Below the pieces are notes generated by a model that saw only the letters and a program-made list of their open reading frames with translations, was not told the origin of the DNA and did no database searches. The position numbers and the translations under genes were made by a program. A stretch of DNA of 64,000 bases from a virus, in IMG/VR virus record IMGVR_UViG_3300022843_000001, positions 96,001 through 160,000 of that record. The stretch is one strand, 5' to 3'. Below are positions 26,068 to 45,978 of the stretch, in pieces (the first letter of the stretch is position 1; each line of letters opens with the position of its first letter).

Positions 26068-26092
26068 TATACAATACCTCTTTATATAGAAA

Positions 26093-26112: not shown

Positions 26113-26136
26113 ATATGTTTCTATTATTTATAACGC

Positions 26137-27317: not shown

Positions 27318-27415
27318 CTTTGTTTACCTTTAACAAAACCTAAAAATGTGTTTATGCAGAACGATAGGTTATTCGTCTCTTCGGGTGGCCACCCTAGCAT
27401 AAACATAACTCTTAT

Positions 27416-29107: not shown

Positions 29108-29169
29108 GTTTTTATCCTTTGTTAAAATAATAAGAAATCATAATAAGGTTGTATTCAATTTACATATAT

Positions 29170-29865
29170 TTATATCAAATGGTATCTGCGAATCTTTGAT
29201 TTAGATATTCCAGTGAGACGCCAAGCCTCAGATATAGAACTATACAGCTTATTGTCTATTGATACTTCTTTAGATTGTGTTTGTATATAGCCGTTCTCAT
29301 ATAACATTTTTAAACTCTTTGACATTTGATCTCTAACACGAATATCACTCATGGCTTTAATCTTTTTGTCGACAGTTTCGCTACTCTGTTTTACCCCCAT
29401 CTTGCTTTTTGATATCTTGCTTTTTGTTTCTTCAGATTTCCTTTTTCCGGTATTAGCAATCTTCAGCTTGAGTTTAAATGATTCAGATTTAGGCTTTCTT
29501 GCACCTTCTAATGCTGATTTCTCACTGATAGCAAAATTATCCGTTTTATTGAGGAATTTTAAATTTTCAACGACTCTCATTCGTTTTAAAACTACATTTT
29601 CCCATGCTATAGCATTTGAACTATTATCAAAGATTCTTCTTATATTGATAATGTCAGGTTCGCCATATTCCATTCTGAATGATTTGACGTGCTTAGAAGA
29701 AGTAAAGTAAGATACCCATAAATCATCGGGGGTACAGTTTTTGGCATATCTTACCCCATAATAATATTTGGCATATTTCGACCATCCTATAACATAAGTA
29801 TAAGGTTTATAACTAATGGTAGACATGATAGCTAATACCTCATTTGAGTTTATAGTAAGATTCAT
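29170..29865 (-). mobile_element. GIY-YIG (Seg-like) homing endonuclease with NUMOD3-like repeats
   Basis: YTYVIGW...YYYGVR...YFTSS, SEETKSKISKSKMG; late promoter at 29893-29900. Confidence 0.8.
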
Positions 29866-29904
29866 AATACGATTATCTTCAATTTACCATTATATTTATA
29901 ATAA

Positions 29905-31527: not shown

Positions 31528-31852
31528 TAATTTGTTTTAACGCCTGTTGTAAATCCGCGGTGCTGCCAATAAACAAATTATTTGTTGTGGTGCCGTTCGG
31601 TGCATCCAAGCCAGGCTGTGAAACTTTTGTATCTATGTCTTTCTTCTTCTTTTGCAGTTCAATTAATTTTTCCGCCACTTCTGAATTTTGCTTCATAAGT
31701 GTACCCAACACTTCAAACGCTCGAGGGTGTTCAAGATTTTTCGCAAGTTCCATCATTAGATCAATTGCTTCTGCACCTTTTTCTGCTAATTCATAATATT
31801 GCTTTCGGGCAAATTCATAATCATCACGTAAATCTTTTTCATCAATAGCCAT
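31472..31852 (-). CDS. g16: Terminase small subunit gp16
   Basis: DDYEFAR, HPRAFEV, NNLFIGSTADLQ. Confidence 0.93.
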   Translation of the reverse strand: MAIDEKDLRDDYEFARKQYYELAEKGAEAIDLMMELAKNLEHPRAFEVLGTLMKQNSEVAEKLIELQKKKKDIDTKVSQPGLDAPNGTTTNNLFIGSTADLQQALKQINDGEALEHKPKDPSNTSV

Positions 31853-31858
31853 TATTTA

Positions 31859-32836
31859 TTACCAATTTTCAGTTACACTTGTTAGCACATCGGTAACAAC
31901 GGTGTTTTGGATTGTTATAGTTTCTCCTGCCACGAAAAGTTCACTTGGAGAAGAAACCAGCAAAGTATTACTATTTATTTGTGTTATTTGACCCACACTT
32001 GCAGTTGTGGTCCCAACAATAATATCACCTACATTAAACAAAGAAACAGTGCTAACTGCAAGTGAGATTGTTTCTGGTACATTACCAAGGTTGGTCTTAA
32101 CGTTTACAGTATGTTCTTCATCAGGTCCGGTAAGAAAAGGGTTTAACATAACGATTTGTTTTTCAAATACCTGATTTGAGGTTGAATCGATAAAGTCCGT
32201 TACGGTCTTTCGGATAACTGCGCCGTTACTAACTTCTCCATAAAATCTTACCCTTGTCTCGAAGTCGAGAGTATACACAATAGTTCGTCTGGTATTGAAA
32301 TCACCTTCATAATCGTCGGCTATTCCTACTCCATTCAATACAAATGGCATATCAGTTTTTATGCTGTCGTTAACCTGTTTAACCGTGACCGTATAGTCTG
32401 GTTGAAAAAACGGCAAAATCTGTTCGATGATTTGTAAAGCATCGTCTTGATTCTTGGACATTATATTTAATTGAATTCCCATTCTATAACCAACAGGTCC
32501 CAGTATTCTTTTCTTGGTGTATGTTGAAGAAGATGTATTTGTCAGAGTCTGTTTGGTCCCTTTCTGCATTTTGGTGTTTGGGTCATAACTTAAGCTAGTC
32601 AACTCAAAAGACATGCGAGGCAATTTGATCGCAATTTTAGGATCGTTTAAATCCGCCTGTTGATCAATTCGAGCAAGAAACTTCTTTTTAGGTCCGTACG
32701 ATAAAGGTACTTTTGTTATATTTTTAACTGTGCCTGCGTTGTCAGTTCGTAGTATAGTAATGTCATTGAATAAAGTACCGAACACCGCTACTGATCTTCT
32801 TATAGTCTCATGATAAAAATGTATTCCGTTAAACAT
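31859..32836 (-). CDS. g15: Tail terminator/sheath stabiliser gp15
   Basis: FYHETIRR, FGTLFNDI, LPRMSFE, EQILPFFQP. Confidence 0.95.
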   Translation of the reverse strand: MFNGIHFYHETIRRSVAVFGTLFNDITILRTDNAGTVKNITKVPLSYGPKKKFLARIDQQADLNDPKIAIKLPRMSFELTSLSYDPNTKMQKGTKQTLTNTSSSTYTKKRILGPVGYRMGIQLNIMSKNQDDALQIIEQILPFFQPDYTVTVKQVNDSIKTDMPFVLNGVGIADDYEGDFNTRRTIVYTLDFETRVRFYGEVSNGAVIRKTVTDFIDSTSNQVFEKQIVMLNPFLTGPDEEHTVNVKTNLGNVPETISLAVSTVSLFNVGDIIVGTTTASVGQITQINSNTLLVSSPSELFVAGETITIQNTVVTDVLTSVTENW

Positions 32837-33756
32837 TATAAAGTACCTTCAGAGAATGGATTGCTTTCTGTAAAATCAATTATTTCATTGGCCTCAGTTT
32901 CAAAGTCGAAGTTTTGTGAGTCCTCTGTATTTGGAAAAACACTACCAACTGTAGAAGTAGAAATATCAAACACTTCTGTTATGTTGGCCGTTGCGCCAGA
33001 TACTGAACCTAAAATCATATTTGCGTTGACTTCTCCAGTTATGAATGAATGAAAGAGACCATCATTTGTTTCAATGTCTATTACTTGCATAACCGCTTCT
33101 GGATGATTGATATTGACTACTTCTGCTTTTATGTTAATAAGAGGTTCGTCTTGAATAATCTGTGTTATAGTTTCGCCTTGTATGAATGTACCGGTAATCA
33201 GACCTAATTGGAATCTAGTAGTATAAGCATTAACTTCGATTGCATCTATTTCTGCTACACCGGTATTAAAGTCTTCATCATTCATTTCGAATAGTCGTGC
33301 CTGCATCTTATATACAGGAAGATTCGATAGTTGATAAAAAGGCATTTCATGTTCAACAAACGATATCTCGAAGAAACTGTTAGACATAGGCAAATAAATA
33401 AGGTCGCCTTCATTAGGTCTATTTTGAAATTCATCATTTTCAAAAGATCCAACCATCTGTTCCCATCTACGTTTAGCAACTATAAAGGTCGCTTCGTCTC
33501 TAATTTCAAGGCCAAATTTAGACATAAGATTGCCTTCACCTTCAAAGCCTTCGTTGCCTTCGATATAAACTTCGATCATGTATGCATCATCGAATTGAGA
33601 CTCTACATCTTCATTTAATATAGAATCTCGGGTAACAATATTACGAGGAAGGTAGTAAATATCTTGTCCAGCCCACTTAACAGATTCGATGATTAAATCC
33701 TCAAAAAGAATCTGTTCAGAACGAACCTTGGTTGATAAGTATAAATTAGTTGGCAT
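32836..33756 (-). CDS. g14: Neck protein gp14
   Basis: EQILFEDLIIES, SKFGLEI, RPNEGDLIY, FFEISFVEHE. Confidence 0.95.
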   Translation of the reverse strand: MPTNLYLSTKVRSEQILFEDLIIESVKWAGQDIYYLPRNIVTRDSILNEDVESQFDDAYMIEVYIEGNEGFEGEGNLMSKFGLEIRDEATFIVAKRRWEQMVGSFENDEFQNRPNEGDLIYLPMSNSFFEISFVEHEMPFYQLSNLPVYKMQARLFEMNDEDFNTGVAEIDAIEVNAYTTRFQLGLITGTFIQGETITQIIQDEPLINIKAEVVNINHPEAVMQVIDIETNDGLFHSFITGEVNANMILGSVSGATANITEVFDISTSTVGSVFPNTEDSQNFDFETEANEIIDFTESNPFSEGTL

Positions 33757-33800
33757 TTGAACCTGCTTTGTATTTAGTTGTGGTTTCTATAAAGTATGTG

Positions 33801-34556
33801 TTAACCAATGAAAAAATCTAAAGGAGCCTCCCAGTTAATTTGCATATCAGTTTCTAGTTTTTCAACCTCAGCATTCGCTTCTTCCCACATTATCTGTCCG
33901 TTCATAGTAACACCACCTGGGAGAAGCATGCCTTCAAATTTCTTCAAATTTGTTCCCCATTGGCGCTTAATTAATGCTGTTATGTAACGTTTCAGAAACA
34001 TATCATTATAGACTGAAACGTAAGTTTCTGGGTTAATTATAACAGATGCATCTAATATGATCCAATCATTTTCCTTTATGTCAGTACCCCACTGAATGTA
34101 AAGGTGTAACTTATTCTGGTGACGACTAAATCGTACTTGACTTGAAGTATTGAACATATCACGAGCTTGAGTTAATTGCCCTTGCATTTGAGAATAATAT
34201 GCCATGCCTTGAAATCCACCCGATCTTAAATCGTAGACGTCATTATACGCCATTTGATAATCGATATTAAAGATGCCGCCGCCGCTTCCAGCGCCAGATG
34301 TGTTGAGTGGAACAATTCTAGTAATAACTGATATGTCTGAAGGCAGGGTTACAAATTCATTAGAGATGTCTGCCGCGGTAATTTGTATTTTGTAGTATGA
34401 ATTTAAAATAGCGTCTGAATGATACATCTGATAAAATTCAATACCTTCGTCTACTCGGTCAGAAACTTGATCATCATCTACATTGATCTCAAGCACTGGC
34501 GCGCCTAATTGTCTTAGACAATAATCAATAAGCTCGTTTCGTGTTGTGACTACCAT
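33801..34556 (-). CDS. g13: Neck protein gp13
   Basis: YCLRQLGAPVLEINV, KRQWGTNLKKF, PGGVTMNG. Confidence 0.96.
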   Translation of the reverse strand: MVVTTRNELIDYCLRQLGAPVLEINVDDDQVSDRVDEGIEFYQMYHSDAILNSYYKIQITAADISNEFVTLPSDISVITRIVPLNTSGAGSGGGIFNIDYQMAYNDVYDLRSGGFQGMAYYSQMQGQLTQARDMFNTSSQVRFSRHQNKLHLYIQWGTDIKENDWIILDASVIINPETYVSVYNDMFLKRYITALIKRQWGTNLKKFEGMLLPGGVTMNGQIMWEEANAEVEKLETDMQINWEAPLDFFIG

Positions 34557-35942: not shown

Positions 35943-38900
35943 TTATTCTTTACCTCCGAAAATGTTAAGGCATAACTGAAAAGGATCGCTAGGAGAAAAA
36001 CCACTATTCCAGTGATTTAAAATAATAGACCTAGTTTCTGGACTTTGTGTACCTGTAACAGAGGGTGAGTTATTGTCTTCCAACCTATTCGCCTCACAGG
36101 AGTAAGAGTAAGTAGCAGTAAAAGGTACTTCGAAGATAACTTGGTATTTCCCAGTTCCCAAATCAACAACATCAGACACATTATAACTAGCGAGAATCAA
36201 CGGTGGATTCTGAGTACCATCAAAGTTGACCCAAGCGGTTGCAACACCAGTGTTCTTAATCTCACCATGAACTGTCAAGTCACCATGCGCTTCAACATTA
36301 TTAAACCGTTGCTTGGCAACAGGCATATTGACGAGTGTAGAGTTGATTACATCACCTTCGCTGTCAGTTCTAAACTCAGCTAAGTATGTCCGTTCAATAG
36401 CGGTGTCACTAGAGTTGTACATTCTACCAGCGTCGATTAAGTAGTAGTCTGACGGGAGGATTGTGTTAAATTCTAGTTCTGCTATTCCAGTGTATGTAGC
36501 GGCTCCATTATTAGCGGTGTTGTTAATTCTGTGGTAAATATACGCAGTGGTGTTACCTGCAGTAGTGTATAGATCGCCCCACAACTTTACCCCATTTCCA
36601 GAGTAATCGGACGAGGTGAAAGTAGAATCAATAGCTGTCCAAGTAAATCCGTCATTAGAGCCTTCAATAGTAAACCTTTTAGGTAATCTAGTATTGTCTG
36701 CAGGAGCACGTAATCTCCATGATTTAAGCACCCTAGCTTCAGTACCTTTATACTGAAGTTGCGAGTTTGTTGTAGACGTGCCTAACCATAGGTCCGAACT
36801 GCCAACAACTTGATCATTAGCGTTTTTATTAAACGCATTCCAAGCTGGGTACAGACTAACACTAGCGCTGGCAGCACCCGTAGAACTCTCGTAACCAAAG
36901 TGCCTAGCGGTAGTTCTCAATGATGCATCTAACGGACTAACAACACCCCATTTATCAGCGTCATTACGAGTAATACCTTCTAGTGGTCTGTTCTCAGTTA
37001 CACCATACGAACCACCTAAGTCTTTATAGATGTAGTAGTGCTTGCTCTCATGTCCAGCACCTAATGCATACGTTACACCAGAACCTACGTTCTCTTTGCT
37101 GTCCACTTGACCATTCGCATCAAAACCTTGAGCAAATGATATGAGTGTATTCTGAGCGATTGAGAGAGTATCTGCCGTAGTTGGGTAGGTGTAGTCACTG
37201 TTGGTATACGTGTTTGTACCAGCACCTCCTGTTGATGACTCTGCATAAGCCATGAAGAGGTATTCATCGTTTAGGTCGTTACCATTACCATTATCATCTC
37301 CAATATAAAATCCATTATCATCTAATCTAGTTCTAGTAGTTTGTGACACTTGCGCTCCTGAGTTTTCTAAACGCAAATAATTATCTAGTATCTGAGAATC
37401 TACTGTTTCCCAGCTACCAATATTAGTTAAATTTTTAACCATTACAAAAGCAGGTTTAAAACCACAGTCTACATAATTACCAGCAGCACCAGTGCCAATG
37501 TACTTGCCTATTTTTGATACGTTGGGGACTGATGTGAAGTGGTAGGATACATAATTTTTATCAGCTTGATTACTGGCTAAATTTGAACCAATGCTTACAG
37601 TCAATTCGTTTACAAGATAGTTTACAGCGGCAATGTTGATAACAGTACCCGTTGTATTAAGGATTATGGTGTTGTGAGAATCACCTAAAAGTTTACTCTG
37701 CACTAACCAATCAAACCCTGTGTCTCGTCCTTTAGTAATAGTTAAATCAGGCTCAACACCTAAATGATGAGGTATTTCATGTCCTGCTGCACCATCACCT
37801 TCGTAACCAACAATACTGAAACCAAGGTCGGGGTTGTAGTGTGATGTATACGCTTTGTTGCGGTTAGTTGTACCAGTAACTTTCTTAGTTGTCTGCCATG
37901 ACCATGAAGCGTAAGTTTCTGCGTTCCCATTTATTACATCTGACGTTCCCACTGTAAAACCAGTGGGGGTGAAACTTTGGTGGGTTGTTGCAACAGTACC
38001 TTCTTCGTCGGTTGTATCACTTCGCAATCTAACTGAGTTACCCCTAATTGTGTCAAATAGGTGATGACTATCAGCACTACGACTTTTAGCCCAAACAAGC
38101 CCACCAAAGTCACCAGTGGACATATCAAGACCAGTGTTAATAGCTCGACCATCTGCACCATCACCTGTGTATATTGCAGCACTAAAACCTGATCTTTCTG
38201 ATTTGCCTTGAGTTACTGCTTCTTGGTTCAAAGTTGAATTACGAGCAATAGTATTAGATACAGCAGTATCTTTATCATCAATTTGTGTCTGAGTATAACC
38301 ACTAACTATGTCTCCCCATAAAGAACCTGAGTAAGCTTGCATTTTATTACTAACACTATTGAAATATAGTGCTCCTATAACTAAAGCGTCACCATCATTA
38401 TCTAATGTAGGATCTGAAGATTTTGCTCCTAAATACCTATCATCAAAGTTATCGTAAGCCAATTCTGCAGCATCTCTAGCATTTTCTGCTAATGATCGTT
38501 CATAAGTTGCTGTTACTACATCAGCATTAGTAGCTACTACATCAGCATTAGTAGCTGATAAGTCTAAAGCAGTATCGATTGTGTCTTGATGTGTAAGTAC
38601 GAGATAAGCAGCTACAGCTATTCGATCTAAACCTGTCTGCACTTTGTCTGCTTCTGATAATATAACGTTGTTATTAGTTGTTACAACATCATTGTTAGTT
38701 GCCACAACATCAGCAGCAGTATCAATAGTATCTTGGTTAGTACTTACTAAGTCATTTGCAACAGCTGTTCTGTCTAAACCTGTCTGGTTTTTATCTGCTT
38801 CAACAAGTATGACGTTATTATTAGTAGTAACAACATCAGCTGCTGTATCTATCGTATCTTGGTTTGTTTCAACTAAGTCAGAAGCCGTATCGATTGTGTC

Positions 38901-39131
38901 TTGATTAGTAGCAACTAAATCTGCTGCAGTGTCTATAGTATCTTGATTAGTAGCAACTAAATTAGAAGAAGTTTGTTCTGCATTATCAGATATGTTATCA
39001 ATTTCTGACTCTAATCTAGTAATTTCTGTAAGTTTATCAGCTACTGACTTTACAATATCATAACCAGTAGTAGCCAATTCTCTGTCTATAGCAACTTTAT
39101 TTGATGTTAGCGAACTAAATTTTCTAGCCAT
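35943..39131 (-). CDS. Tail fibre/appendage protein (mosaic, 1062 aa)
   Basis: N-terminal heptad repeats, DRYLGAKSSDPTLDNDG motif, YTGDG repeats, discoidin/F5-8-like segment (FTIEGSNDG), C-terminal AWVNFDG domain. Confidence 0.85.
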   Translation of the reverse strand: MARKFSSLTSNKVAIDRELATTGYDIVKSVADKLTEITRLESEIDNISDNAEQTSSNLVATNQDTIDTAADLVATNQDTIDTASDLVETNQDTIDTAADVVTTNNNVILVEADKNQTGLDRTAVANDLVSTNQDTIDTAADVVATNNDVVTTNNNVILSEADKVQTGLDRIAVAAYLVLTHQDTIDTALDLSATNADVVATNADVVTATYERSLAENARDAAELAYDNFDDRYLGAKSSDPTLDNDGDALVIGALYFNSVSNKMQAYSGSLWGDIVSGYTQTQIDDKDTAVSNTIARNSTLNQEAVTQGKSERSGFSAAIYTGDGADGRAINTGLDMSTGDFGGLVWAKSRSADSHHLFDTIRGNSVRLRSDTTDEEGTVATTHQSFTPTGFTVGTSDVINGNAETYASWSWQTTKKVTGTTNRNKAYTSHYNPDLGFSIVGYEGDGAAGHEIPHHLGVEPDLTITKGRDTGFDWLVQSKLLGDSHNTIILNTTGTVINIAAVNYLVNELTVSIGSNLASNQADKNYVSYHFTSVPNVSKIGKYIGTGAAGNYVDCGFKPAFVMVKNLTNIGSWETVDSQILDNYLRLENSGAQVSQTTRTRLDDNGFYIGDDNGNGNDLNDEYLFMAYAESSTGGAGTNTYTNSDYTYPTTADTLSIAQNTLISFAQGFDANGQVDSKENVGSGVTYALGAGHESKHYYIYKDLGGSYGVTENRPLEGITRNDADKWGVVSPLDASLRTTARHFGYESSTGAASASVSLYPAWNAFNKNANDQVVGSSDLWLGTSTTNSQLQYKGTEARVLKSWRLRAPADNTRLPKRFTIEGSNDGFTWTAIDSTFTSSDYSGNGVKLWGDLYTTAGNTTAYIYHRINNTANNGAATYTGIAELEFNTILPSDYYLIDAGRMYNSSDTAIERTYLAEFRTDSEGDVINSTLVNMPVAKQRFNNVEAHGDLTVHGEIKNTGVATAWVNFDGTQNPPLILASYNVSDVVDLGTGKYQVIFEVPFTATYSYSCEANRLEDNNSPSVTGTQSPETRSIILNHWNSGFSPSDPFQLCLNIFGGKE
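38490..38965. repeat. Imperfect 7/14-codon repeats (ATNQDTIDTAADLV) in the fibre stalk
   Basis: Repeated translated units NQDTIDT and TNNNVI...EADK.QTGLDR. Confidence 0.85.
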
Positions 39132-39748
39132 TATACAAAACCTCTTTGATCAAATTTATAAGATTCCATATCGTCAGGAAGCAGTAAACCTTGGTCTACT
39201 ACTCTTTTACAGCTTTGGTCAAACCTTATATAGTGTGTATTATTTTCTGCTTTTATGTCAGAAGATATAGTTGAATTACCTCTATAGCCTATGTAATGCA
39301 ACAAAGCTTCTAGTAGTTGTGGAGGTAATGCTAAACTATCAGTAGTGTAATTAACAAAAGGAATAGACCCTCTATATATAATACTTAATTTTTCATCTTG
39401 TGCTACATTAGGAACTTCTACTGTGTTATACGTGGGAGTCATTATACCTAGAGGATCTTTTTCATCATTTACAGAAACTAGTTCTCCTTGTTCGTCATAA
39501 CACTCTATAACTACAAGGAAATTAGCAGGATTGTTTATACTAACATCTGTGTCGGTACCGTCTAGAGTATACGTTGTTTTACCTGTTTGAAGAGTAATAA
39601 TAGCTTCTTCAGCTTTAAGTGTGAACCTTTTATGAAGTTCCAACATACCAAGATTTATAAATCCAATTACTGCTTCTTCATTATCTTTTACAGATAACTG
39701 CCTCAGCTCTGAACTTTTAGCTAGACTTATTACTTGGCTGACTAACAT
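39131..39748 (-). CDS. N4 gp67-like head-tail adaptor
   Basis: SELRQLS, FINLGMLELHKRF, LEALLHYIGYR; position right after the N4-type terminase. Confidence 0.75.
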   Translation of the reverse strand: MLVSQVISLAKSSELRQLSVKDNEEAVIGFINLGMLELHKRFTLKAEEAIITLQTGKTTYTLDGTDTDVSINNPANFLVVIECYDEQGELVSVNDEKDPLGIMTPTYNTVEVPNVAQDEKLSIIYRGSIPFVNYTTDSLALPPQLLEALLHYIGYRGNSTISSDIKAENNTHYIRFDQSCKRVVDQGLLLPDDMESYKFDQRGFV

Positions 39749-39789
39749 TTGTTAACCCTTAAATTTTCATTATACTACCATACTATACA

Positions 39790-41412
39790 CTAAAATATAG
39801 TACTGTTATGTAGATTATCCAAATCATCCTCGTCTGGAAAGGTAGCATACGTACCTTCTTCATTTTGTACATACTGTGTATTAGTTTCTTCACTAGGTTC
39901 AAATGGGCTTAGTTCTGATAGCATAGCAAAAGTATCAGCTACATCATCATGTTTAGATTTAAACCCTTCTTTTGTAACAAACCTTAGTTCTTCTAAACAC
40001 TCATTCATGTATTTAGATCCTTTCATTTCTTCAGGAAGTAATACTTTTTTAGCTATTATCTTAGGAAGAAAAAGCATAAATCTAGATATTTTCTTTTTAG
40101 TAGGTCTTATACCTTCTTTAACGTTATCAAAACCTTTAGCTAGATTAAAGAATACACTTTTTCTTATCATCTCAGCTTTAATCCAAGCTATAAAACCACC
40201 TTGTTGACCACTTACCTCAATTCCAACTTCTAAAGGCTTGTACATAGCTACGTACTTAAACAGATCTGCTAAAGTTTTATCCATCAGTTGTTGTGCAATT
40301 TTACCGTCTACTAAAAGCCAATCTCCGTTATTGTTATAAGCCCACACAGAAATTACGCTGTAGTCAGCTGTTTTTTCTTCACTAGTAGCAAAGTCAGTTG
40401 TTATGTACCAGTTGTAGTTGCCTTTGTTTTTTAGAACATCTTTTCTGCTGTACCAAACTAAATCGTCACTGTTAACTAGTCTGTCTTCGTCACTTGTTAT
40501 TCTAAGCATAAGCTCTTGGTCAAATGCAGCTAACTCGCCACTTTCTTTAAGACTGTGGTACTCGTGGTTAATAAAAGAAAAAGGAAATCTATCTTCCCAC
40601 GCACCAACAAATTCTTCTTCTGTACACGGAAATTTTTCACATAGAGGATAAAGCTTTGTTAGCCATGATTTAGACTCAGCTGCTTCGTATAGAGGATCTT
40701 GCTTATTAAACGGTGTACCTGTCCAATTGATCATACGTTTTTTAGGATGTAAGCACTGTCTTGCTGCTCTATACAGAACTTTTTTAATGTCTTCTACAAT
40801 AGTTGCAGATTCTGCGTTTTTGTCTGACATGAGATCGTCTAGCCCTAGCCATGTAGGACGCTTACCATATTTCTTAAATCCACGAACACCTGTGTTAGCA
40901 CCAAAACCTTTAACGAAAAACATTTTACCGTCAGCGTTTTGAAACTCCCATTCAGAATCTATAAACTTTGTGTAAGGAACATATTTCTGTAAAAATTGTG
41001 AATGGTCCCATCTGTACTGCAGGTTTTGCCTCATAGACTTAACACCGTTGTCTATTGTGTCAGCTACGTACATGGCTACGTCAACTTCACCAAAACCGTC
41101 AACTTCACCGTAAACAGCTATGTACAAAAACATGTACTCATGTATTACTGAAGTTTTAGCACCACCACGAAAACAGACAAACAAGTTCTGCCTAGATTCA
41201 GTTATTGTGTCCAACATGTCATAGTGAAACAGAGGTGAAGTATTTTCTTCACCCATAGATCCGTTAACTAGTTTAATAAATGCTATAAACTTTAAAGCAA
41301 ATCTAGTAGGTACGTAATCTTTAGAAAATTTGGAGTAATCAATTTCTTTCAGCTTTTCTTCAAGATCTTTTTTAGCTTCTTCTACTATTACTTCTGTCAT
41401 TAAAATTTCCAA
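39790..41412 (-). CDS. Terminase large subunit, N4 gp68 type
   Basis: YVPTRFALKFIAFIKLVNG, CFRGGAKTS, LDDLMSD, GTPFN, DFATS, HDDVAD. Confidence 0.9.
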   Translation of the reverse strand: MEILMTEVIVEEAKKDLEEKLKEIDYSKFSKDYVPTRFALKFIAFIKLVNGSMGEENTSPLFHYDMLDTITESRQNLFVCFRGGAKTSVIHEYMFLYIAVYGEVDGFGEVDVAMYVADTIDNGVKSMRQNLQYRWDHSQFLQKYVPYTKFIDSEWEFQNADGKMFFVKGFGANTGVRGFKKYGKRPTWLGLDDLMSDKNAESATIVEDIKKVLYRAARQCLHPKKRMINWTGTPFNKQDPLYEAAESKSWLTKLYPLCEKFPCTEEEFVGAWEDRFPFSFINHEYHSLKESGELAAFDQELMLRITSDEDRLVNSDDLVWYSRKDVLKNKGNYNWYITTDFATSEEKTADYSVISVWAYNNNGDWLLVDGKIAQQLMDKTLADLFKYVAMYKPLEVGIEVSGQQGGFIAWIKAEMIRKSVFFNLAKGFDNVKEGIRPTKKKISRFMLFLPKIIAKKVLLPEEMKGSKYMNECLEELRFVTKEGFKSKHDDVADTFAMLSELSPFEPSEETNTQYVQNEEGTYATFPDEDDLDNLHNSTIF

Positions 41413-42272
41413 GGCTTATCAGGTGTAGAAGATTTACCAGTATTTGGTATATCCCATACGTCTTCTTCAGGATCAGGTACTTCTACAAAAGTATTACTTT
41501 TACTTGGTATAGGTTTATCCCTGATTTCTTCAGTAAACTCAGCTTCTTCAATATCATCTGTTTCTATTTCTTTACTTACTATTTTAGATTCAATAATTGT
41601 TTTAATAGGTACACCAGCTTGAATACTTTGTTGTTCTTTTATAATTAATTTTTCTGTAGCTTCTCTTAAAGACGCTATAGCAGATTTAGCACCATCCTCA
41701 ACTTGTATACTGATAACATTGTCATCAGAAGGTTTAAGCTCTTTAATTAATGTTTCACCTGCCTTTTGTCTAACGATTTCTGATTTAGCATTACGCATTA
41801 ACTCAGCTTGGTTAGTTATTGATTCGTACAGCAGATGTCTAAAAATTAGTTGTACAGGGGTAGTAGCTACTTTTCGTATTTCACTAACTAAAGCAGTAGC
41901 GTTATATCTAGATGCTTCGCCTGTTATTGCACTTTTAGTTTGGCCTCTGTCAGTTCTAGCTTTAAGTCTTTCTGGAAAAACAAGAATATAAGACTCAGTT
42001 AAACTGTTACCAGATTCAACTAAAGAAAAAAACTTAACAGCACACAAGTACCCTCTTGAAGTGTATTTGCTGTTACTGCTCAGTATATTTAAATGGTCCC
42101 TGTAAACGTCTAAAAATTCTTCACCGTAGTCAGGATTTTGAGCTAGCTTGTTAAGCTCATACACAGTATTCTCATCAATCATGTGTTTTTGTTTAGCAGA
42201 CAGCTGAGACTGTAAAACTTTTAAATCAAGTTTAGCTTGTTTGGATTGTTCTGATGTTACTGTTGTTCCCAT
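41400..42272 (-). CDS. N4 gp69-like protein (putative terminase small subunit)
   Basis: YLCAVKF, FPERL, QAELMRNAKSEIVRQKA; adjacent to the large subunit. Confidence 0.75.
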   Translation of the reverse strand: MGTTVTSEQSKQAKLDLKVLQSQLSAKQKHMIDENTVYELNKLAQNPDYGEEFLDVYRDHLNILSSNSKYTSRGYLCAVKFFSLVESGNSLTESYILVFPERLKARTDRGQTKSAITGEASRYNATALVSEIRKVATTPVQLIFRHLLYESITNQAELMRNAKSEIVRQKAGETLIKELKPSDDNVISIQVEDGAKSAIASLREATEKLIIKEQQSIQAGVPIKTIIESKIVSKEIETDDIEEAEFTEEIRDKPIPSKSNTFVEVPDPEEDVWDIPNTGKSSTPDKPWKF

Positions 42273-42281
42273 TTCTATAGC

Positions 42282-42737
42282 CTAATAAGGTATGTCTTGT
42301 TCTACAAATTCTACTGCTGATTTACTTAGTATGTAGTTGTAGTCTTCTGTGCTGATAGGCTTACTACCTTTTGGTAGCAGTACTTTATAATTAATATTTT
42401 TTATGTAACTTATTACTTCTTCAACATCAATGTCTTTAAATAACTCTGTGTGTCCATCAGTTTTCTTTTCAGGAACCCATTTCCACTCTGCTAGCAGTTC
42501 ATGTAAATGCTGTTCTAATAAATAAGGTACACCTGTTTCAAAATCTAACTTTGATCTAGTGAAAGGAATATACCTGTACGCCATAAACCAAGACCTTAGT
42601 ATTTCCATCATACGGTCAGTAGATCTAGGGGCGAAGCACATTCCAATTTTATAGACAACTTCCATGTCATCTAAGGTAAGTTCCAGTATGTAGACTCTAC
42701 CTACTGAAACTTCTGGTACTTTCCTAGTAGCAAACAT
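42282..42737 (-). CDS. T5orf172/MUG113-like GIY-YIG domain protein
   Basis: GRVYIL...VYKIGM...R, EQHLH, GHTELF. Confidence 0.7.
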   Translation of the reverse strand: MFATRKVPEVSVGRVYILELTLDDMEVVYKIGMCFAPRSTDRMMEILRSWFMAYRYIPFTRSKLDFETGVPYLLEQHLHELLAEWKWVPEKKTDGHTELFKDIDVEEVISYIKNINYKVLLPKGSKPISTEDYNYILSKSAVEFVEQDIPY

Positions 42738-42740
42738 TTA

Positions 42741-43193
42741 TTAATCTACAACACACCAATCTTCAGACATTATATCTATTACTGTACTGGCATAGGGTAT
42801 TTTTCTTGTGCCTTCTTCACAATCAGGAATAACAAAATAAGGATAAGAAACAGTCATTTCAGAGTTTGTAGAGTTACGAAGTACTAAGTACATACCTTTT
42901 CCATTCCAACCTGCTCTACATACTTTAGAACCACGTTTAAGTAATTCTATTGCGTGACCAAACGTTAAATTACCACTAGTTTTATATGAAGTTTCAAACA
43001 CATCTTTAGGTGACCAACTGATGTAACCATCGTAAGCAGCTGTATTAGGAAACCCTGTTTCAAGATACTCAACTAAATAACCTTCATCAGTACCATCTTC
43101 GTCATCAGGTAATACCCAACCTCGAAATTCGTTGTAATCTAAACGACTCATAGGTTTTGCAGACACTAATTTTGTTCCTACAAAAATTTCCAT
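42741..43193 (-). CDS. tad2: DUF2829/Tad2-like cyclic-nucleotide sponge with an N-terminal extension
   Basis: LTFGHAIELLKRGSKVCRAGWNGKGMYL...DIMSEDW, the DUF2829 signature. Confidence 0.75.
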   Translation of the reverse strand: MEIFVGTKLVSAKPMSRLDYNEFRGWVLPDDEDGTDEGYLVEYLETGFPNTAAYDGYISWSPKDVFETSYKTSGNLTFGHAIELLKRGSKVCRAGWNGKGMYLVLRNSTNSEMTVSYPYFVIPDCEEGTRKIPYASTVIDIMSEDWCVVD

Positions 43194-43471
43194 TAGAAAA
43201 ATTCCGGCTGCGCTACTGCTCTGGTTGCGTACATTAAACCGGTCTGTAAATCTGTTTTAGCTAGTGCCAAGAATCGTTCAGGTGTTGAATTTTTAATGTG
43301 GTCTTTTTCTTTTTTAGTCATGTCTGGACTGTATTGACTAGATACGTGTTTAGAAATTTCAATAAGTACTTCTTCCATTTTAGGACCAAGTGCTTTAATT
43401 TTGTTCATTAAGTCGATTTCGGTCTGTGAGAGTTCACGGTATCCAGTAATTTTGCGGTGCTGGTTGTCCAT
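43193..43471 (-). CDS. acb2: Anti-CBASS protein Acb2
   Basis: MDNQHRKITGYRELSQTEIDLMNKIK (Y11, K26) and KTDLQTGLMYATRAVAQP; start moved to ATG 43471. Confidence 0.92.
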   Translation of the reverse strand: MDNQHRKITGYRELSQTEIDLMNKIKALGPKMEEVLIEISKHVSSQYSPDMTKKEKDHIKNSTPERFLALAKTDLQTGLMYATRAVAQPEFF

Positions 43472-43504
43472 CTTTAAATCCTGTATAGGTTGTTTAAAAA
43501 TTAA

Positions 43505-43533
43505 AATATACACTATGTACTTTTTGTAGTCAA
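43505..43533 (-). promoter_or_regulatory. Sigma70 promoter with extended -10 upstream of acb2
   Basis: TTGACT-17-TATATT with TG immediately before the -10 element. Confidence 0.7.
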
Positions 43534-43579
43534 TAATAAACGGATCTTAGGCTGGTACGTAGAACTAGGGGGTACTGTC

Positions 43580-43669
43580 TGGCAGAAAGAGAGAGATTTG
43601 AACTCTCGGCCCCATTTCTGGGACTTTCCCTTAGCAGGGGAACGCCTTAAACCACTCAGCCATCTTTCT
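43580..43669 (-). tRNA. tRNA-Ser (GCT)
   Basis: Cloverleaf, long variable arm, loop CTGCTAA, encoded CCA. Confidence 0.92.
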
Positions 43670-43675
43670 TTAATT

Positions 43676-43753
43676 TGGGGCTTTACACAAGTTTTTACAC
43701 TTACTGGTTAAAACACGTTAACCATCCACAGCTATCAAACTGTGGGATAAAGC
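43676..43753 (-). ncRNA. tRNA-like RNA with acceptor stem and CCA but no D/T consensus
   Basis: GCTTTAT/GTAAAGC 7-bp stem, C discriminator, CCA; three internal hairpins; lies between two tRNAs. Confidence 0.6.
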
Positions 43754-43755
43754 AT

Positions 43756-43830
43756 TGGTAGCGATAACGGGATTCGAACCCGTGATTTCTAGGTTATGAG
43801 CCTAACGCCTTACCACTTGGCTATATCGCA
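43756..43830 (-). tRNA. tRNA-CAU (Met, fMet or Ile2 unresolved)
   Basis: Loop CTCATAA, TTCGAAT T-loop, CCA; T1:T72 mismatch. Confidence 0.9.
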
Positions 43831-43860
43831 AACTGCACAGTACTATATTATTTATACTAA

Positions 43861-43934
43861 TGGAAGACCTGTCTGGAATCGAACCAGAATAAAAAGATTC
43901 AAAGTCTTTCGCATCACCATTCTGCCACAGGTCT
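43861..43934 (-). tRNA. tRNA-Gln (TTG)
   Basis: AAAGA-CTTTGAA-TCTTT anticodon arm, TTCGATT, CCA. Confidence 0.9.
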
Positions 43935-43938
43935 AAAT

Positions 43939-44013
43939 TGGCTCCAAAGGTCGGACTCGAACCTACAACCTTTCCGTTAACAGCGGAATGCTCTACCATT
44001 GAGCTACTCTGGA
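43939..44013 (-). tRNA. tRNA-Asn (GTT)
   Basis: TTCCG-CTGTTAA-CGGAA, TTCGAGT, CCA. Confidence 0.92.
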
Positions 44014-44055
44014 ATAATAAAATGTAAGTGCTAGGCGCTAACACTATTCGCACAT

Positions 44056-44086
44056 AAAAAAACCCCCAGTACTTTCGTAGTGGAGG
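44056..44086 (-). terminator. Intrinsic terminator upstream of the tRNA cluster
   Basis: CCTCCACTAC-GAAA-GTACTGGGGG followed by T7 on minus. Confidence 0.65.
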
Positions 44087-44245
44087 TTTTTGTCTTCTAG
44101 GTTTTTCTTTACTTTTAGGTATAGATACTACTGAAGATCACCTCCACGGTGCTGTTTGAAATTCGGTTGATGTTTATTGTTAAAGTAAGTTTTCATTTTT
44201 GTACTCTATCAAGTATTTATTGTTTAGTACAGTACTTATAGCAGT

Positions 44246-44488
44246 TTATTTTATCCACACGTAATTTGTTATTTGAGTACTATATTTAAAATCTTTATGT
44301 AGTACTCCTTCAGTAACTTCTATTTTACCAAATTTTACTACTACTGCAGGAATCCCTTCAGCCCTTAGTTTGTCTGCTAACCAATGAAGATAAGGTCCAT
44401 TTTCTATTACGCTGTGTGCATAGTTTCTGCTTGGAGCAGGACCATTGTACTCACATTCATTTATTTCTACTTTTACACTTTTAGCCAT
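44246..44488 (-). CDS. Hypothetical protein
   Basis: 80-aa ORF in a tight minus-strand run. Confidence 0.6.
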   Translation of the reverse strand: MAKSVKVEINECEYNGPAPSRNYAHSVIENGPYLHWLADKLRAEGIPAVVVKFGKIEVTEGVLHKDFKYSTQITNYVWIK

Positions 44489-44491
44489 TAT

Positions 44492-44758
44492 TTACACAGC
44501 TTTAATTATTACTAAATTTGATTCAGCTGCTGTAGTGCCTTTTGGTACGTACAATCTGCATTTTACGTTATTATAGTCTACTGTATAAAAATCAGTTAAC
44601 ACGTAAGTTTTCTTTTCTTTTTGTACATCACCATGAACTACGTACTTTTCTATTTCTTGGTGTAATTCTTTAGCATAACCTAATGGGCCACACCAATTAC
44701 CATAACCACTAGGTTCGTGTACGTAAGTGTAGATATCATAACCTTCTATCATTAACAA
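44492..44758 (-). CDS. Hypothetical protein
   Basis: 88-aa ORF overlapping the upstream gene end. Confidence 0.6.
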   Translation of the reverse strand: MLMIEGYDIYTYVHEPSGYGNWCGPLGYAKELHQEIEKYVVHGDVQKEKKTYVLTDFYTVDYNNVKCRLYVPKGTTAAESNLVIIKAV

Positions 44759-45153
44759 TCACCCCAACGTTTAAATAAGATAGCACCTTTGTTTTGATTA
44801 CCATGTCGAAGTAAACTAGGGGATAGCATGTACACACCGTTATGCACTTTTTTAAGTAAATTTTTCTTGTACAGTTTTTGGAACAAAGTAGAAACAGTAG
44901 GTACTGTTGTATCACATTCTTTAGCAATAAAAGCAAATGTTCCTATGATACGGTTATTACTATCTTTGTTTTTAATAAGCCACGCCAAAACAGTATTAGT
45001 AGCGGTACCAGCTACACCAATGTATTCAGCTAATAACTTAGCATAAGACCTTTCCCAATAAGCTTTAGGAATCTTTTCAATAAACATATCAACAGGCATT
45101 ATTTCACCTGTACGATCATTTACCATTGTGTACGTGTCTTCATCTATATTCAT
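44752..45153 (-). CDS. RepL-like winged-HTH DNA-binding protein
   Basis: VNDRTGEI, IAKECDTTVPTVSTLFQKL HTH, GVYMLSP. Confidence 0.65.
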   Translation of the reverse strand: MNIDEDTYTMVNDRTGEIMPVDMFIEKIPKAYWERSYAKLLAEYIGVAGTATNTVLAWLIKNKDSNNRIIGTFAFIAKECDTTVPTVSTLFQKLYKKNLLKKVHNGVYMLSPSLLRHGNQNKGAILFKRWGDC

Positions 45154-45261: not shown

Positions 45262-45978
45262 TTAATCTACGTACTCTTGTATTTTGTACGGAAGTTTAAA
45301 AAATAATATCCATTCATTTCTATGAGCTACTGCATCTTTTAACTTTACAAATCTGTCAGACGCTACTAACTTTCCTTCATGTTTTAGTACAGAAGACCAT
45401 TTTCCTGTTTTTTTAACTAGTGTTATGCCTACGTACCCACTAGAACTATTTTTATACACTCTTTTGTTAACTGCTTGTTCTTGTCTTGTAGCCCACGTAC
45501 AGTTGCCGGGGTTATAACCACCATTGTTGTCAATACGCTCTATAGTCAGTTTTTCTTTGTACCCACTGTTTTTAGCCCACTCTATAAATGTCTCCATTGA
45601 GTTTGCCCATTCAGAACACATATCTATTCCTCTATTACCATAGTCAATATAGCTTTTATTTTTTGGGTTAGTACATCTGTGAACCATCGCGTACCAGACT
45701 GCTGATATTTTGCTTGTTGAAAGTCCGTGAGTAGTTCTTACTTTTGATACAGCTTCTTTAGCAAAGCAACCACAAGATGTAGATAGACCTGATTTTAAAT
45801 TACTACCTCTTATAGTTTTTTCATTACCACACTGACATTCACATAACCAGTAATGAGTGTTCTTTACATCTTCTGCTCTACTAACAACAGTTAGTCTTGA
45901 GTATACGTTTCCTACAATGTCTTTAGTGTTTACCATTACGAATCTCCTGTTAAAGCAGTAGCATAACATACTAAACAA
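45262..45978 (-). mobile_element. HNH-AP2 type homing endonuclease
   Basis: WLCECQCG...SCGC, YGNRGI, TIERIDNNGGYNPGNCTWAT, C-terminal AP2-like SGYVGI. Confidence 0.82.

What the first reader, a model, noticed from the sequence alone, without database searches (positions are those of the whole stretch)
42282..44758. Compact anti-defence island: Acb2 + Tad2-like sponges, tRNAs and unknown neighbours
Acb2 (ligand-binding Y11 and K26 retained) is translationally coupled to a DUF2829/Tad2-like protein, directly behind a host-sigma70 promoter. Acb2 and Tad2 are established sponges for CBASS and Thoeris signals, so the pair could cover several immune messengers at once. The Tad2-like protein has an extra ~70-aa N-terminal domain (GTKLVSAKPM...YISWSPKDVF) that might be a second binding module. 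The flanking GIY-YIG gene and the two unknown ORFs at 44246-44758 are guilt-by-association candidates for new anti-defence factors, and the tRNAs could offset anticodon nucleases.
Basis: partly seen in the sequence, partly recalled or inferred. Interest (0 to 1): 0.75.

Follow-up and report, generated by a model that had tools for sequence, protein, structure and literature searches.

The report
Phage immune-signal sponge cassette (Acb2 + Tad2)
An N4-like phage from a salt lake carries two coupled genes for known "sponge" proteins that soak up bacterial alarm nucleotides, in a slot where related phages keep other sponges; the only open question is the role of a small, unnamed extra domain on the second protein.

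Summary
On the minus strand a sigma70-type promoter (43533-43505) precedes Acb2 (43471-43193, 92 aa). Its stop overlaps (TAATG) the start of a 150-aa two-domain Tad2 protein (43193-41), followed by T5orf172, a terminase-associated gene and TerL.

Acb2 keeps the residues of both published ligand pockets. The Tad2 domain has the Tad2 fold and the invariant GWNG loop and Asp, but 5 of 7 residues of its C-terminal pocket strand differ from the family consensus.

In eight related phage contigs the same promoter element heads a variable slot: Acb2, Acb4, N-Tad2, N-Sequestin-Tad2, N-Tad2-Sequestin, or nothing. This is a sponge hot spot.

The ~72-aa N-domain has no Pfam family. It is homologous to the N-domain of RyR Tad (hhalign 95%), which forms a domain-swapped dimer and showed no activity alone. 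It occurs fused to Tad2, Sequestin, Acb4, Acb2-hairpin and RyR-Tad domains. A second ligand site is possible but unproven. This scan has met the same domain before on other genomes.

T5orf172 is a conserved backbone gene. ORF86 and ORF80 belong to a separate, terminated operon and are absent from relatives. Nothing supports an anti-defence role for them, or an anti-nuclease role for the tRNAs.

Verdict: a new member of a known kind.

The parts
43505..43533 (-). Sigma70-type promoter TTGACT-17-TATATT that heads the sponge cassette
   Evidence: Matches 10 of 12 positions. The ~29-nt element, spacer included, is conserved in front of the first cassette gene in L002, L004, L005 and L006, with variants in L007 and L008. 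It is unique in the 199-kb record.
43193..43471 (-). Acb2, 92 aa: sponge for CBASS cyclic di- and trinucleotides
   Evidence: PF24729 at 55.1 bits. E 6.6e-26 to PaMx33 Acb2 (8H2J), full length. Y11, L14, K26, R67, A70, T74 and P90 equivalents are kept; I71 is Leu (alignment; residue roles).
42978..43193 (-). N-domain of the Tad2-like protein (residues 1-72): unnamed, sponge-associated, SH3/Tudor-like beta domain
   Evidence: No Pfam or NCBIfam match. 1447 cluster representatives at E<=1e-3. hhalign to the RyR Tad N-domain gives 95.3% probability, E 2.1e-8. pLDDT is above 90. Best fold matches reach only Z 4.1-4.5.
42741..42968 (-). Tad2 (DUF2829) domain of the same protein (residues 76-150, plus stop)
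   Evidence: PF11195 at 67.9 bits. Z 10.7 to ModTad2 (9EIB) and 10.5 to HgmTad2 (8KBI). TM 0.81 by target to SPO1 Tad2. GWNG and D140 are invariant. The pocket strand reads Y-A-S-T-V-I-D where the consensus is W-L-A-S-Q-T-D.
42282..42737 (-). T5orf172-domain protein (GIY-YIG clan); a conserved backbone gene downstream of the cassette
   Evidence: PF10544 at 26.5 bits; phrog_681 'endonuclease'. 56-65% identical orthologues sit in the same position in 7 of 8 related loci.
41400..42272 (-). phrog_2109 protein whose end overlaps the TerL start; presumed packaging partner
   Evidence: phrog_2109 E 1e-42. Conserved synteny in all 8 relatives.
39790..41412 (-). N4-type large terminase, used as the anchor for comparative genomics
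   Evidence: phrog_38 E 2e-77. 50-62% identity to TerL of N4-like phages. 61-86% identity to 8 IMG/VR loci.
43580..44013 (-). tRNA array: Asn-GTT, Gln-TTG, Met-CAT, Ser-GCT
   Evidence: ARAGORN. Rfam tRNA at 57-71 bits. The tRNA set at this position varies among relatives.
44056..44086 (-). Intrinsic terminator that closes the RepL-like/ORF86/ORF80 operon
   Evidence: A 14-bp stem interrupted by one 1x1 internal loop, closed by a GAAA tetraloop and followed by U7. Free energy -16.5 kcal/mol, z -3.86.
44246..44488 (-). ORF80: orphan small ORF, function unknown
   Evidence: No homologue other than itself. No family match. Atlas model pLDDT 0.41 with no usable hit. Absent from relatives.
44492..44752 (-). 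ORF86: small all-beta protein of a rare family, function unknown, coupled to the RepL-like gene
   Evidence: Four homologue clusters, 35 invariant columns. AF2 pLDDT 79.7 for the best model, 42-80 across the five. Best fold match Z 3.2. Absent from relatives.
44752..45153 (-). RepL-like winged-helix protein; conserved left flank of the variable slot
   Evidence: PF05732 E 4e-17. 77-86% identical in 6 relatives, always upstream of the slot.
45262..45978 (-). HNH homing-endonuclease gene, an insertion specific to this phage
   Evidence: phrog_374 E 6e-69. No match in any related locus.

Best explanation
This is the accessory counter-defence cassette of an N4-like podophage, in which a conserved sigma70-type promoter drives a bicistronic, translationally coupled pair of immune-signal sponges.

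- Acb2 is expected to form a hexamer. It should sequester CBASS cyclic dinucleotides in its Y11/K26 pockets and cyclic trinucleotides in its R67/T74 pockets.
- The two-domain Tad2 protein is expected to sequester Thoeris-type ADPR-derived signals through its Tad2 tetramer pocket (GWNG loop plus Asp140). Because its pocket strand has diverged, its ligand preference may be shifted.
- The N-terminal 72-aa domain is most likely a domain-swapping dimerisation or scaffold module. Phages attach it to many different sponge domains.

By lowering free messenger, both proteins would keep CBASS and Thoeris effectors silent.

Transcription appears to continue into T5orf172, a terminase-associated gene and TerL.

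The tRNA array and the RepL-like/ORF86/ORF80 operon upstream are separate units that merely share a variable region.

Shown here: family membership, residue conservation, fold, gene coupling, and slot variability. Inferred: oligomeric states, ligands, promoter use, and the role of the N-domain.
For: Acb2:
- Full-length similarity to PaMx33 Acb2, E 6.6e-26.
- All published contact residues for cyclic dinucleotides (Y11, L14, K26, P90) and cyclic trinucleotides (R67, A70, T74) are kept; I71 is Leu.

Tad2 domain:
- Pfam 67.9 bits.
- Fold Z 10.7 and 10.5 to ModTad2 and HgmTad2.
- W96, N97, G98 and D140 are invariant in 65 homologues. They correspond to HgmTad2 W21/N22/G23 and D93, whose mutation reduces gcADPR binding.

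Coupling: TAATG overlap.

Hot spot:
- In 8 related loci the same promoter element is followed by Acb2, Acb4, N-Tad2, N-Sequestin-Tad2, Acb4 plus N-Tad2-Sequestin, or nothing. The flanks stay conserved: RepL-like on one side, T5orf172/p2109/TerL on the other.
- Acb2 lies immediately next to a two-domain Tad2 in 4 of 80 other IMG/VR loci, and Acb4 lies within 3 kb in 23 of 80.

N-domain:
- hhalign to the RyR Tad N-domain gives 95.3% probability, E 2.1e-8.
- The preprint 10.64898/2026.06.04.730250 reports that domain as a domain-swapped dimer with no activity of its own.
- Among 150 representatives it is joined to Tad2 (49), Sequestin (40), Acb4 (22), Acb2-hairpin (1) and RyR-like (1) domains, in variable order.
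Against: - No binding or phenotype data exist for these proteins.
- The Tad2 pocket strand differs from the consensus at 5 of 7 positions. These include the equivalents of HgmTad2 W87 (Tyr here), S90 (Thr here) and T92 (Ile here). gcADPR binding is therefore not assured.
- The N-domain is at least as conserved as the Tad2 core: 33 of 72 columns reach 90% or more, against 19 of 75, and mean pairwise identity is 0.67 against 0.62. It also occurs as a stand-alone ORF. That is more than a simple dimeriser would seem to need.
- The RyR Tad N-domain is a divergent member (about 30% identity) and, as far as the text shows, was tested against only one defence system.
- The promoter is a consensus match in AT-rich DNA, and the host is unknown.
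- The cassette sits at the head of a packaging-gene operon, which is odd timing for a counter-defence function if the promoter is late.
Confidence: 0.75

Rival explanations
1. The N-domain is itself a further sponge or ligand-binding module. The 150-aa protein would then be a two-specificity fusion like Acb4-Tad2 or Acb4-Sequestin, and the cassette would cover three signal classes or more.
For: The same 'fused to known sponges' logic led to the discovery of Sequestin.

The N-domain is fused to five sponge families, in N-terminal, C-terminal and internal positions, and also stands alone at 76-100 aa.

Its polar and aromatic residues are very strongly conserved (K8, R17, Y20, N21, R24, W26, Y43, Y57, S59, W60, S61, Y70). 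It is more conserved than the Tad2 core.

It has no Pfam family, so Pfam-based fusion screens would have missed it.
Against: - The homologous RyR Tad N-domain (residues 1-86) had no apparent anti-Thoeris-I activity, and ligand density was reported in the C-domain only.
- The domain is strongly acidic, with net charge -8, whereas known sponges use positively charged pockets.
- No oligomer or pocket model could be made here.
- The fold is a generic SH3/Tudor-like barrel, Z 4.5 or below.
Confidence: 0.2
2. The Tad2 domain of this small subclade (pocket strand Y-A-S/P-T-V/I-I/V-D) no longer binds gcADPR. It has been retargeted to another messenger, for example His-ADPR, N7-cADPR or a cyclic mononucleotide.
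For: Four of 65 homologues, the window protein and its three nearest relatives, share the changed strand, while 58-61 of 65 keep W..S-Q.

The T92-equivalent hydroxyl that contacts adenine in HgmTad2 is lost.

Tad2 homologues are known to differ widely in specificity: CBASS, Pycsar, and Thoeris types I, II and IV.
Against: The GWNG loop and the Asp that contact the diphosphate and riboses are intact. The W-to-Y and S-to-T changes are conservative.
Confidence: 0.3
3. The neighbours (T5orf172, ORF86, ORF80) are additional anti-defence factors, and the tRNAs replace tRNAs cut by host anticodon nucleases. On this reading the whole 2.5 kb is one multi-layer island.
For: The ORFs are small and lie in a variable region next to proven sponge families. 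ORF86 and ORF80 are strain-specific insertions. The tRNA content varies between relatives. From general knowledge, phage tRNAs are known to counter some tRNA-cleaving defences.
Against: - T5orf172 is conserved in 7 of 8 relatives regardless of cargo and stays with the packaging genes.
- ORF86 and ORF80 are coupled to the RepL-like gene and are separated from the sponges by a strong terminator and the tRNA array.
- They have no informative homologue, family or fold.
- No specific feature of the tRNAs was found that points to nuclease evasion.
Confidence: 0.1
4. The DUF2829 protein is an anti-CRISPR (AcrIIA7-like) rather than a signal sponge.
For: Some database records call homologues 'anti-CRISPR protein'. 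PDB entries 8KBI and 9KZR carry the names 'Inhibitor of Type II CRISPR-Cas system' and AcrIIA7.
Against: The discoverers of Tad2 note that Cas9 binding was never shown, and they argue that the family is anti-Thoeris. AcrIIA7 and HgmTad2 are the same protein, and it was solved with gcADPR and cGG bound.
Confidence: 0.03

Closest known systems
Acb2 of Pseudomonas phage PaMx33 (PDB 8H2J, 8IXZ and related entries)
   Same: Same length class (92 against 93 aa), the same MDNQH start, and about 50% identity over the full length. Both ligand pockets are conserved (Y11, L14, K26, P90; R67, A70, T74). The expected mechanism is the same: a hexameric sponge for cyclic di- and trinucleotides.
   Different: - It is carried by an N4-like phage of a salt-lake community.
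- The residue at the helix kink (E64) is Thr, and I71 is Leu.
- It is translationally coupled to a Tad2-family gene.
- The relatives L007 and L009 carry a shorter, 74-aa form.
Tad2 family: SPO1 Gp34.65 (8SME), HgmTad2/AcrIIA7 (8KBI), ModTad2 (9EIB)
   Same: The C-terminal 75 residues have the Tad2 fold (Z 10.5-10.7), the GWNG loop and the pocket Asp.
   Different: - It carries an extra 72-aa N-domain.
- The insertion between the strands is short, SPO1-like, so the HgmTad2-type cGG pocket is probably lacking.
- The pocket strand is changed at 5 of 7 positions.
RyR Tad (Pectobacterium phage vB_PatP_CB1 gp68; bioRxiv 10.64898/2026.06.04.730250)
   Same: The N-terminal domains are homologous (hhalign 95.3%, E 2.1e-8). 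The layout is the same: N-domain followed by a sponge domain. Both are in N-like phages.
   Different: - The C-domain there is a ryanodine-receptor Repeat12-like helical gcADPR binder, not Tad2.
- The CB1 N-domain is a divergent member that lacks many residues conserved in the canonical domain (R17, Y20, N21, R24, W26 and others).
Anti-signalling hot spot of Migulavirinae and other N4-like phages (Ab09 gp57-61; same preprint), and multi-sponge fusions (Acb4-Tad2, Tad2-Sequestin, Acb4-Sequestin; bioRxiv 10.1101/2025.07.12.664507)
   Same: It is a variable slot in N4-like genomes that collects Tad2, Acb4, Sequestin and related genes, and it has redundant coverage of CBASS and Thoeris.
   Different: - The published hot spot lies between the primase and the virion RNA polymerase.
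- This one lies near the other end of the genome, between a RepL-like gene and the terminase genes, behind its own conserved promoter.
- It also holds Acb2.

Membership tests
Acb2 (anti-CBASS 2 sponge) | Acb2/Tad1 hairpin domain, and full-length similarity to a structurally solved Acb2 | tested here: met
   PF24729 at 55.1 bits against a cut-off of 27. phmmer E 6.6e-26 to 8H2J, residues 1-93.
Acb2 (anti-CBASS 2 sponge) | Cyclic-dinucleotide pocket residues Y11 and K26 (plus L14 and P90) | tested here: met
   All four are identical in the alignment.
Acb2 (anti-CBASS 2 sponge) | Cyclic-trinucleotide pocket residues R67 and T74 (plus A70 and I71) | tested here: met
   R, T and A are identical and I71 is Leu. 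The kink residue E64 is Thr here, with unknown effect.
Acb2 (anti-CBASS 2 sponge) | Hexamer assembly and measured binding of cGAMP and cA3 | not testable with these tools
   No multimer modelling or biochemistry is available.
Tad2 (DUF2829, PF11195) | Domain match and Tad2 fold | tested here: met
   67.9 bits against a cut-off of 25. Z 10.7 (rmsd 2.3, 70 aligned) to 9EIB and Z 10.5 to 8KBI. Foldseek TM 0.81 by target to 8WJE.
Tad2 (DUF2829, PF11195) | gcADPR pocket: W-N-G loop and pocket Asp (HgmTad2 W21/N22/G23 and D93) | tested here: met
   W96, N97, G98 and D140 are invariant in 65 of 65 homologues.
Tad2 (DUF2829, PF11195) | gcADPR pocket strand (HgmTad2 W87, S90, T92; SPO1 W73, S76, T78) | tested here: inconclusive
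   Y134, T137 and I139 here. Only 4 of 65 homologues share this motif. The aromatic ring and one hydroxyl are kept, and the adenine-contacting Thr is lost.
Tad2 (DUF2829, PF11195) | Second pocket for cyclic dinucleotides, built by the long insertion of HgmTad2 (residues 32-72, with S47 and F70) | tested here: inconclusive
   The insertion here is about 24 residues (109-132), as in SPO1 Tad2. It is the least conserved part of the protein. The R31 equivalent is present, but S47 and F70 cannot be aligned.
RyR-Tad-type N-domain (unnamed sponge-associated domain) | Sequence homology to the N-terminal domain of CB1 gp68 | tested here: met
   BLASTP E 2e-5. hhalign 95.3% probability, E 2.1e-8 over 65 columns.
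RyR-Tad-type N-domain (unnamed sponge-associated domain) | Domain-swapped dimer through strand beta-1 | not testable with these tools
   Only a monomer model could be made. The RyR Tad structure is not in the PDB copy searched.
Anti-defence hot spot / island | Conserved flanks with variable cargo among related genomes, the cargo being rich in proven anti-defence families | tested here: met
   Eight related loci hold seven different cargos built from Acb2, Acb4, Tad2 and Sequestin, behind one conserved promoter element.
Lockin / TadIV-1 (other sponge families, considered for the N-domain) | Lockin: elongated beta protein forming a cog-like hexamer. TadIV-1: two-helix dimer. | tested here: inconclusive
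   The N-domain is a compact beta barrel with two helices. No Lockin or TadIV-1 entry appeared among the fold matches. The published descriptions differ from it.
T5orf172 (GIY-YIG clan) | Domain match | tested here: met
   PF10544 at 26.5 bits against a cut-off of 20, profile positions 1-100 of 101. Catalytic residues were not examined.

The most novel reading that the evidence does not exclude
The unnamed 72-aa N-domain may be a further immune-signal-binding or immune-protein-binding module in its own right. On the evidence here it is the commonest fusion partner of Tad2 and also joins Sequestin, Acb4, Acb2-hairpin and RyR-Tad domains. If so, this protein and thousands like it are dual-specificity inhibitors whose second target, possibly a messenger absent from current test panels, is unknown.
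Probability: 0.2. Interest if true: 0.75.

Novelty: new member of a known kind. Interest (0 to 1): 0.42.

Why it matters
Acb2 and Tad2 are established sponges, so the pair itself only adds a member and a new genomic address. That address is a promoter-headed sponge slot beside the terminase genes of a salt-lake N4-like lineage, distinct from the primase/vRNAP hot spot described for other N4-like phages.

Three things are useful:
1. The slot gives a natural series of interchangeable sponge cargos under one promoter (Acb2, Acb4, and N-Tad2 with or without Sequestin). It also includes unknown cargos worth testing: the C-domain fused to the N-domain in L008, and the 78-aa protein in L007.
2. The window's Tad2 belongs to a rare subclade with a rewritten pocket strand, a candidate for a shifted ligand.
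3. The N-domain is abundant and more conserved than the sponge it rides on. It has only a single negative assay on a divergent homologue. Settling whether it dimerises, binds a ligand or binds a host protein would clarify the design rules of multi-domain sponges.

Tried and rejected
- **Megablast of the locus against GenBank phages:** no match.
- **ORF86:**
  - Only four homologue clusters.
  - The AF2 model gave no fold match: best Z 3.2, best BFVD E 8e-3.
  - Pattern scans of viral and metagenome contigs found no relative.
- **ORF80:** no homologue and no usable Atlas hit.
- **N-domain:**
  - No Pfam or NCBIfam family.
  - No PDB sequence match; the best hit was Gemin6 at E 0.6.
  - Fold matches are only generic SH3/Tudor-like barrels (Mfd RID Z 4.5, DUF1653 Z 4.4, CarD Z 4.1). 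I do not read these as an RNA-polymerase-binding function.
- **vRNAP hairpin promoter idea:** I considered that the conserved palindromic spacer in the promoter (AGTACA-TAG-TGTACT in relatives) marks an N4-type vRNAP hairpin promoter. The motif occurs only once in the record, so it is not a promoter class. An operator is possible.
- **Other sponge loci in the record:** I found only one Acb2, one Tad2 and one N-domain. Acb4 and Sequestin were not found, but the control genomes did not ring either, so that blank is weak.
- **Expression data:** no RNA holder was listed.
- **Supplementary tables of the sponge-diversity preprint:** not held.

Full report
**Anatomy**

The finding lies on the minus strand of a run of leftward genes. 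Read in the direction of transcription, the genes are:

- An HNH endonuclease gene (45978-45262).
- A RepL-like winged-helix gene (45153-44752). Its stop overlaps (TAATG) the ATG of an 86-aa ORF (44752-44492).
- An 80-aa ORF three bases further on (44488-44246).
- A strong intrinsic terminator at 44086-44056: -16.5 kcal/mol, z -3.86, followed by U7.
- Four tRNA genes, Asn-GTT, Gln-TTG, Met-CAT and Ser-GCT, at 44013-43580.
- A sigma70-type promoter, TTGACT-17-TATATT, at 43533-43505.
- Acb2 (43471-43193). Its stop overlaps (TAATG) the start of a 150-aa Tad2-like gene (43193-42741).
- A T5orf172-domain gene three bases later (42737-42282).
- A phrog_2109 gene (42272-41400), whose end overlaps the N4-type large terminase (41412-39790).

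- Acb2 starts at the ATG at 43471. The upstream GTG lies before the -10 box.
- The second "unknown ORF" starts at 44752.
- The "GIY-YIG gene" is a T5orf172 family member.

**Acb2**

The 92-aa protein matches PF24729 (55.1 bits). It aligns end to end with PaMx33 Acb2 (PDB 8H2J) at E 6.6e-26, with about half of the residues identical.

The published contact residues are all present:
- Y11, L14, K26 and P90 for cyclic dinucleotides.
- R67, A70 and T74 for cyclic trinucleotides, with I71 replaced by Leu.

The residue roles come from PMC10312549 and PMC12393519. On sequence grounds it should act like PaMx33 or JBD67 Acb2, as a hexamer binding both ligand classes. The oligomer and the binding are inferred.

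**Tad2-like protein**

Residues 77-149 match PF11195 (67.9 bits). An AlphaFold2 model built on 65 homologues has pLDDT 93.

The C-domain superposes on solved Tad2 structures:
- ModTad2: Z 10.7, rmsd 2.3, 70 residues aligned.
- HgmTad2: Z 10.5.
- SPO1 Tad2: TM 0.81 by target.

The GWNG loop and Asp140 are invariant in all 65 homologues. In HgmTad2 the equivalents W21/N22/G23 and D93 contact the diphosphate and riboses of gcADPR, and their mutation reduces binding.

The strand before that Asp reads Y-A-S-T-V-I-D, where 58-61 of 65 homologues have W-L-A-S-Q-T/S-D. Only the window protein and its three nearest relatives share the change. The Thr that hydrogen-bonds adenine in HgmTad2 is Ile here.

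Tad2 homologues are now known to bind very different messengers: gcADPR, His-ADPR, N7-cADPR, cGG and cGAMP, and cUMP and cCMP. I therefore treat the ligand of this subclade as open.

The insertion that forms the cGG pocket in HgmTad2 is short here and is the least conserved part of the protein.

**The N-domain**

Residues 1-72 form a confidently modelled small beta domain with two helices. It has no Pfam or NCBIfam family, no PDB sequence match, and only weak SH3/Tudor-like fold matches at Z 4.5 or below.

Distribution:
- The domain alone finds 1447 cluster representatives at E 1e-3 or better.
- The full two-domain architecture has more than 2500 relatives at E 1e-5 or better in the 90%-identity collection.
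- Among the best 150 representatives, Pfam finds Tad2 in 49, PF21825 in 40, PF13876 in 22 and the Acb2/Tad1 hairpin in 1.
- A local jackhmmer census shows the domain at the N-terminus, at the C-terminus, or between two other domains (for example Acb4-N-Sequestin). It also occurs alone, and once with a RyR-like domain.

The literature identifies these partners. PF21825 is the Sequestin sponge and PF13876 is the Acb4 sponge (bioRxiv 10.1101/2025.07.12.664507; Pfam 38.1 naming seen).

The same preprint found Sequestin by asking which Pfam families are fused to Tad2 and Acb4. A domain without a Pfam entry would be invisible to that query.

One relative has been handled experimentally. [quoted passage not shown] In the crystal it forms a domain-swapped dimer, and alone (residues 1-86) it had no apparent anti-Thoeris-I activity (bioRxiv 10.64898/2026.06.04.730250). 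I fetched gp68 and found it homologous to the window's N-domain: BLASTP E 2e-5, and hhalign 95.3%, E 2.1e-8.

The best-supported role is thus a dimerising scaffold shared by sponge fusions. Two points argue that this may not be the whole story:
- The canonical domain is more conserved than the Tad2 core: 33 of 72 columns reach 90% or more against 19 of 75, and pairwise identity is 0.67 against 0.62.
- CB1 gp68 lacks many of the conserved polar and aromatic residues.

One point argues against a classical nucleotide pocket: the domain is strongly acidic, with net charge -8.

Earlier notes of this scan reached the same view of this domain on other genomes. I arrived at it independently, before reading them.

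**Comparative genomics**

Eight IMG/VR loci with TerL 61-86% identical keep the flanks. RepL-like lies on one side, and T5orf172 (7 of 8), phrog_2109 and TerL on the other. They differ in between:

| Locus | tRNAs | Cassette cargo |
|---|---|---|
| Window | 4 | Acb2 plus N-Tad2 |
| L002, L003 | 5 | N-Tad2 |
| L004 | tRNA-Met only | none |
| L005 | 4 | one N-Sequestin-Tad2 protein |
| L006 | none | Acb4 plus N-Tad2-Sequestin |
| L007 | 3 | a 74-aa Acb2 plus an unknown 78-aa protein |
| L008 | none | Acb4, the N-domain fused to an unknown C-domain, and a 129-aa ORF |
| L009 | none | a 74-aa Acb2 |

The promoter element, including its spacer, is conserved in front of whichever gene comes first. 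It occurs only once in the record.

This is therefore a promoter-headed sponge slot. It is a different location from the hot spot between primase and virion RNA polymerase described for other N4-like phages.

The pairing is not unique. Among 80 unrelated IMG/VR loci with a two-domain Tad2:
- 4 have an Acb2 gene immediately adjacent on the same strand.
- 23 have a separate Acb4 gene within 3 kb.

**Neighbours**

- T5orf172 stays with the packaging genes whatever the cargo, so it is backbone.
- ORF86 and ORF80 are absent from all eight relatives. They belong to the RepL-like operon and are cut off from the sponges by a terminator and the tRNA array.
- ORF86 has four metagenomic homologue clusters and an all-beta model with no fold match. 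ORF80 has none.
- The context of the ORF86 homologues could not be retrieved.
- Nothing found here supports an anti-defence role for these ORFs or a nuclease-evasion role for the tRNAs. Neither is excluded.

**Context and caveats**

- The window is part of a 198,785-bp IMG/VR record.
- The record holds two unrelated large terminases, a T4-type one with sheath and portal at window 24-32 kb and the N4-type one here.
- It also holds a ~2.8-kb near-duplicate of the fibre region, at record positions 131.3-134.1 kb and 195.4-198.2 kb.
- It is probably two phages joined in assembly, with the cassette belonging to an N4-like genome of about 64 kb.
- Independent contigs (L002-L009) confirm the local gene order, including the divergent early genes beyond RepL.
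- The DNA recurs in many salt-lake metagenome runs of 2018. No RNA run is listed, so expression is untested.
- No other Acb2, Tad2 or N-domain copy occurs in the record.

**Verdict**

This is a genuine, compact immune-signal sponge cassette built from known families, in a newly described slot. Its one interesting loose end is the unnamed N-domain, and to a lesser degree the rewritten Tad2 pocket. The guilt-by-association claims for the neighbours and the tRNAs are not supported.

Noticed in passing
window 24460-34556 against 35943-41412; record positions 131326-134118 and 195436-198225: The 199-kb record holds a T4-type module (TerL at 29905-31527, sheath, portal) next to the N4-type module. 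It also holds a ~2.8-kb near-duplicate of the N4-type fibre region. This is probably a chimeric (figure-eight) assembly of a ~131-kb myovirus and a ~64-kb N4-like phage. The 17-tRNA cluster lies in the myovirus part.
   Followed up: partly
window 45262-45978; motifs at 46046-46032 and 45172-45158: The HNH endonuclease gene is absent from all relatives. The same 15-nt leader motif (TACTAAAGAATATTT) stands upstream of both the HNH gene and the RepL-like gene, as if the insertion had duplicated the RepL leader.
   Followed up: no
window 43505-43533 and the equivalent sites in L002, L004, L005: In relatives the promoter spacer and -10 region hold a perfect 6-bp inverted repeat with a 3-nt gap (AGTACA-TAG-TGTACT). 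It is conserved well beyond what a sigma70 promoter needs and may be an operator. The RepL-like winged-helix gene always lies just upstream.
   Followed up: partly
L008:1909-2457 (also protein P0258): Here the N-domain is fused to an unknown ~100-aa C-terminal domain with no Pfam match, in the same sponge slot behind an Acb4 gene. By the fusion logic this is a candidate new sponge domain. L007:859-1095 (78 aa, basic) and L008:2436-2825 (129 aa) are further unknown cargos of the slot.
   Followed up: no
window 43670-43755: There is an 86-nt gap inside the tRNA array between tRNA-Ser and tRNA-Met. ARAGORN and Rfam (E up to 1) call nothing there. Another reader of this scan proposed a tRNA-shaped RNA at this spot.
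   Followed up: partly
L007:603-827 and L009:8742-8966: Relatives carry a shorter, 74-aa form of Acb2 that lacks about 18 residues in the loop between the two long helices, compared with the 92-aa form in the window.
   Followed up: no
window 42282-44758: The stretch is held nearly whole by at least 11 salt-lake metagenome runs of 2018, possibly one sampling campaign. The phage is therefore recurrent in that habitat. The host is unknown.
   Followed up: no
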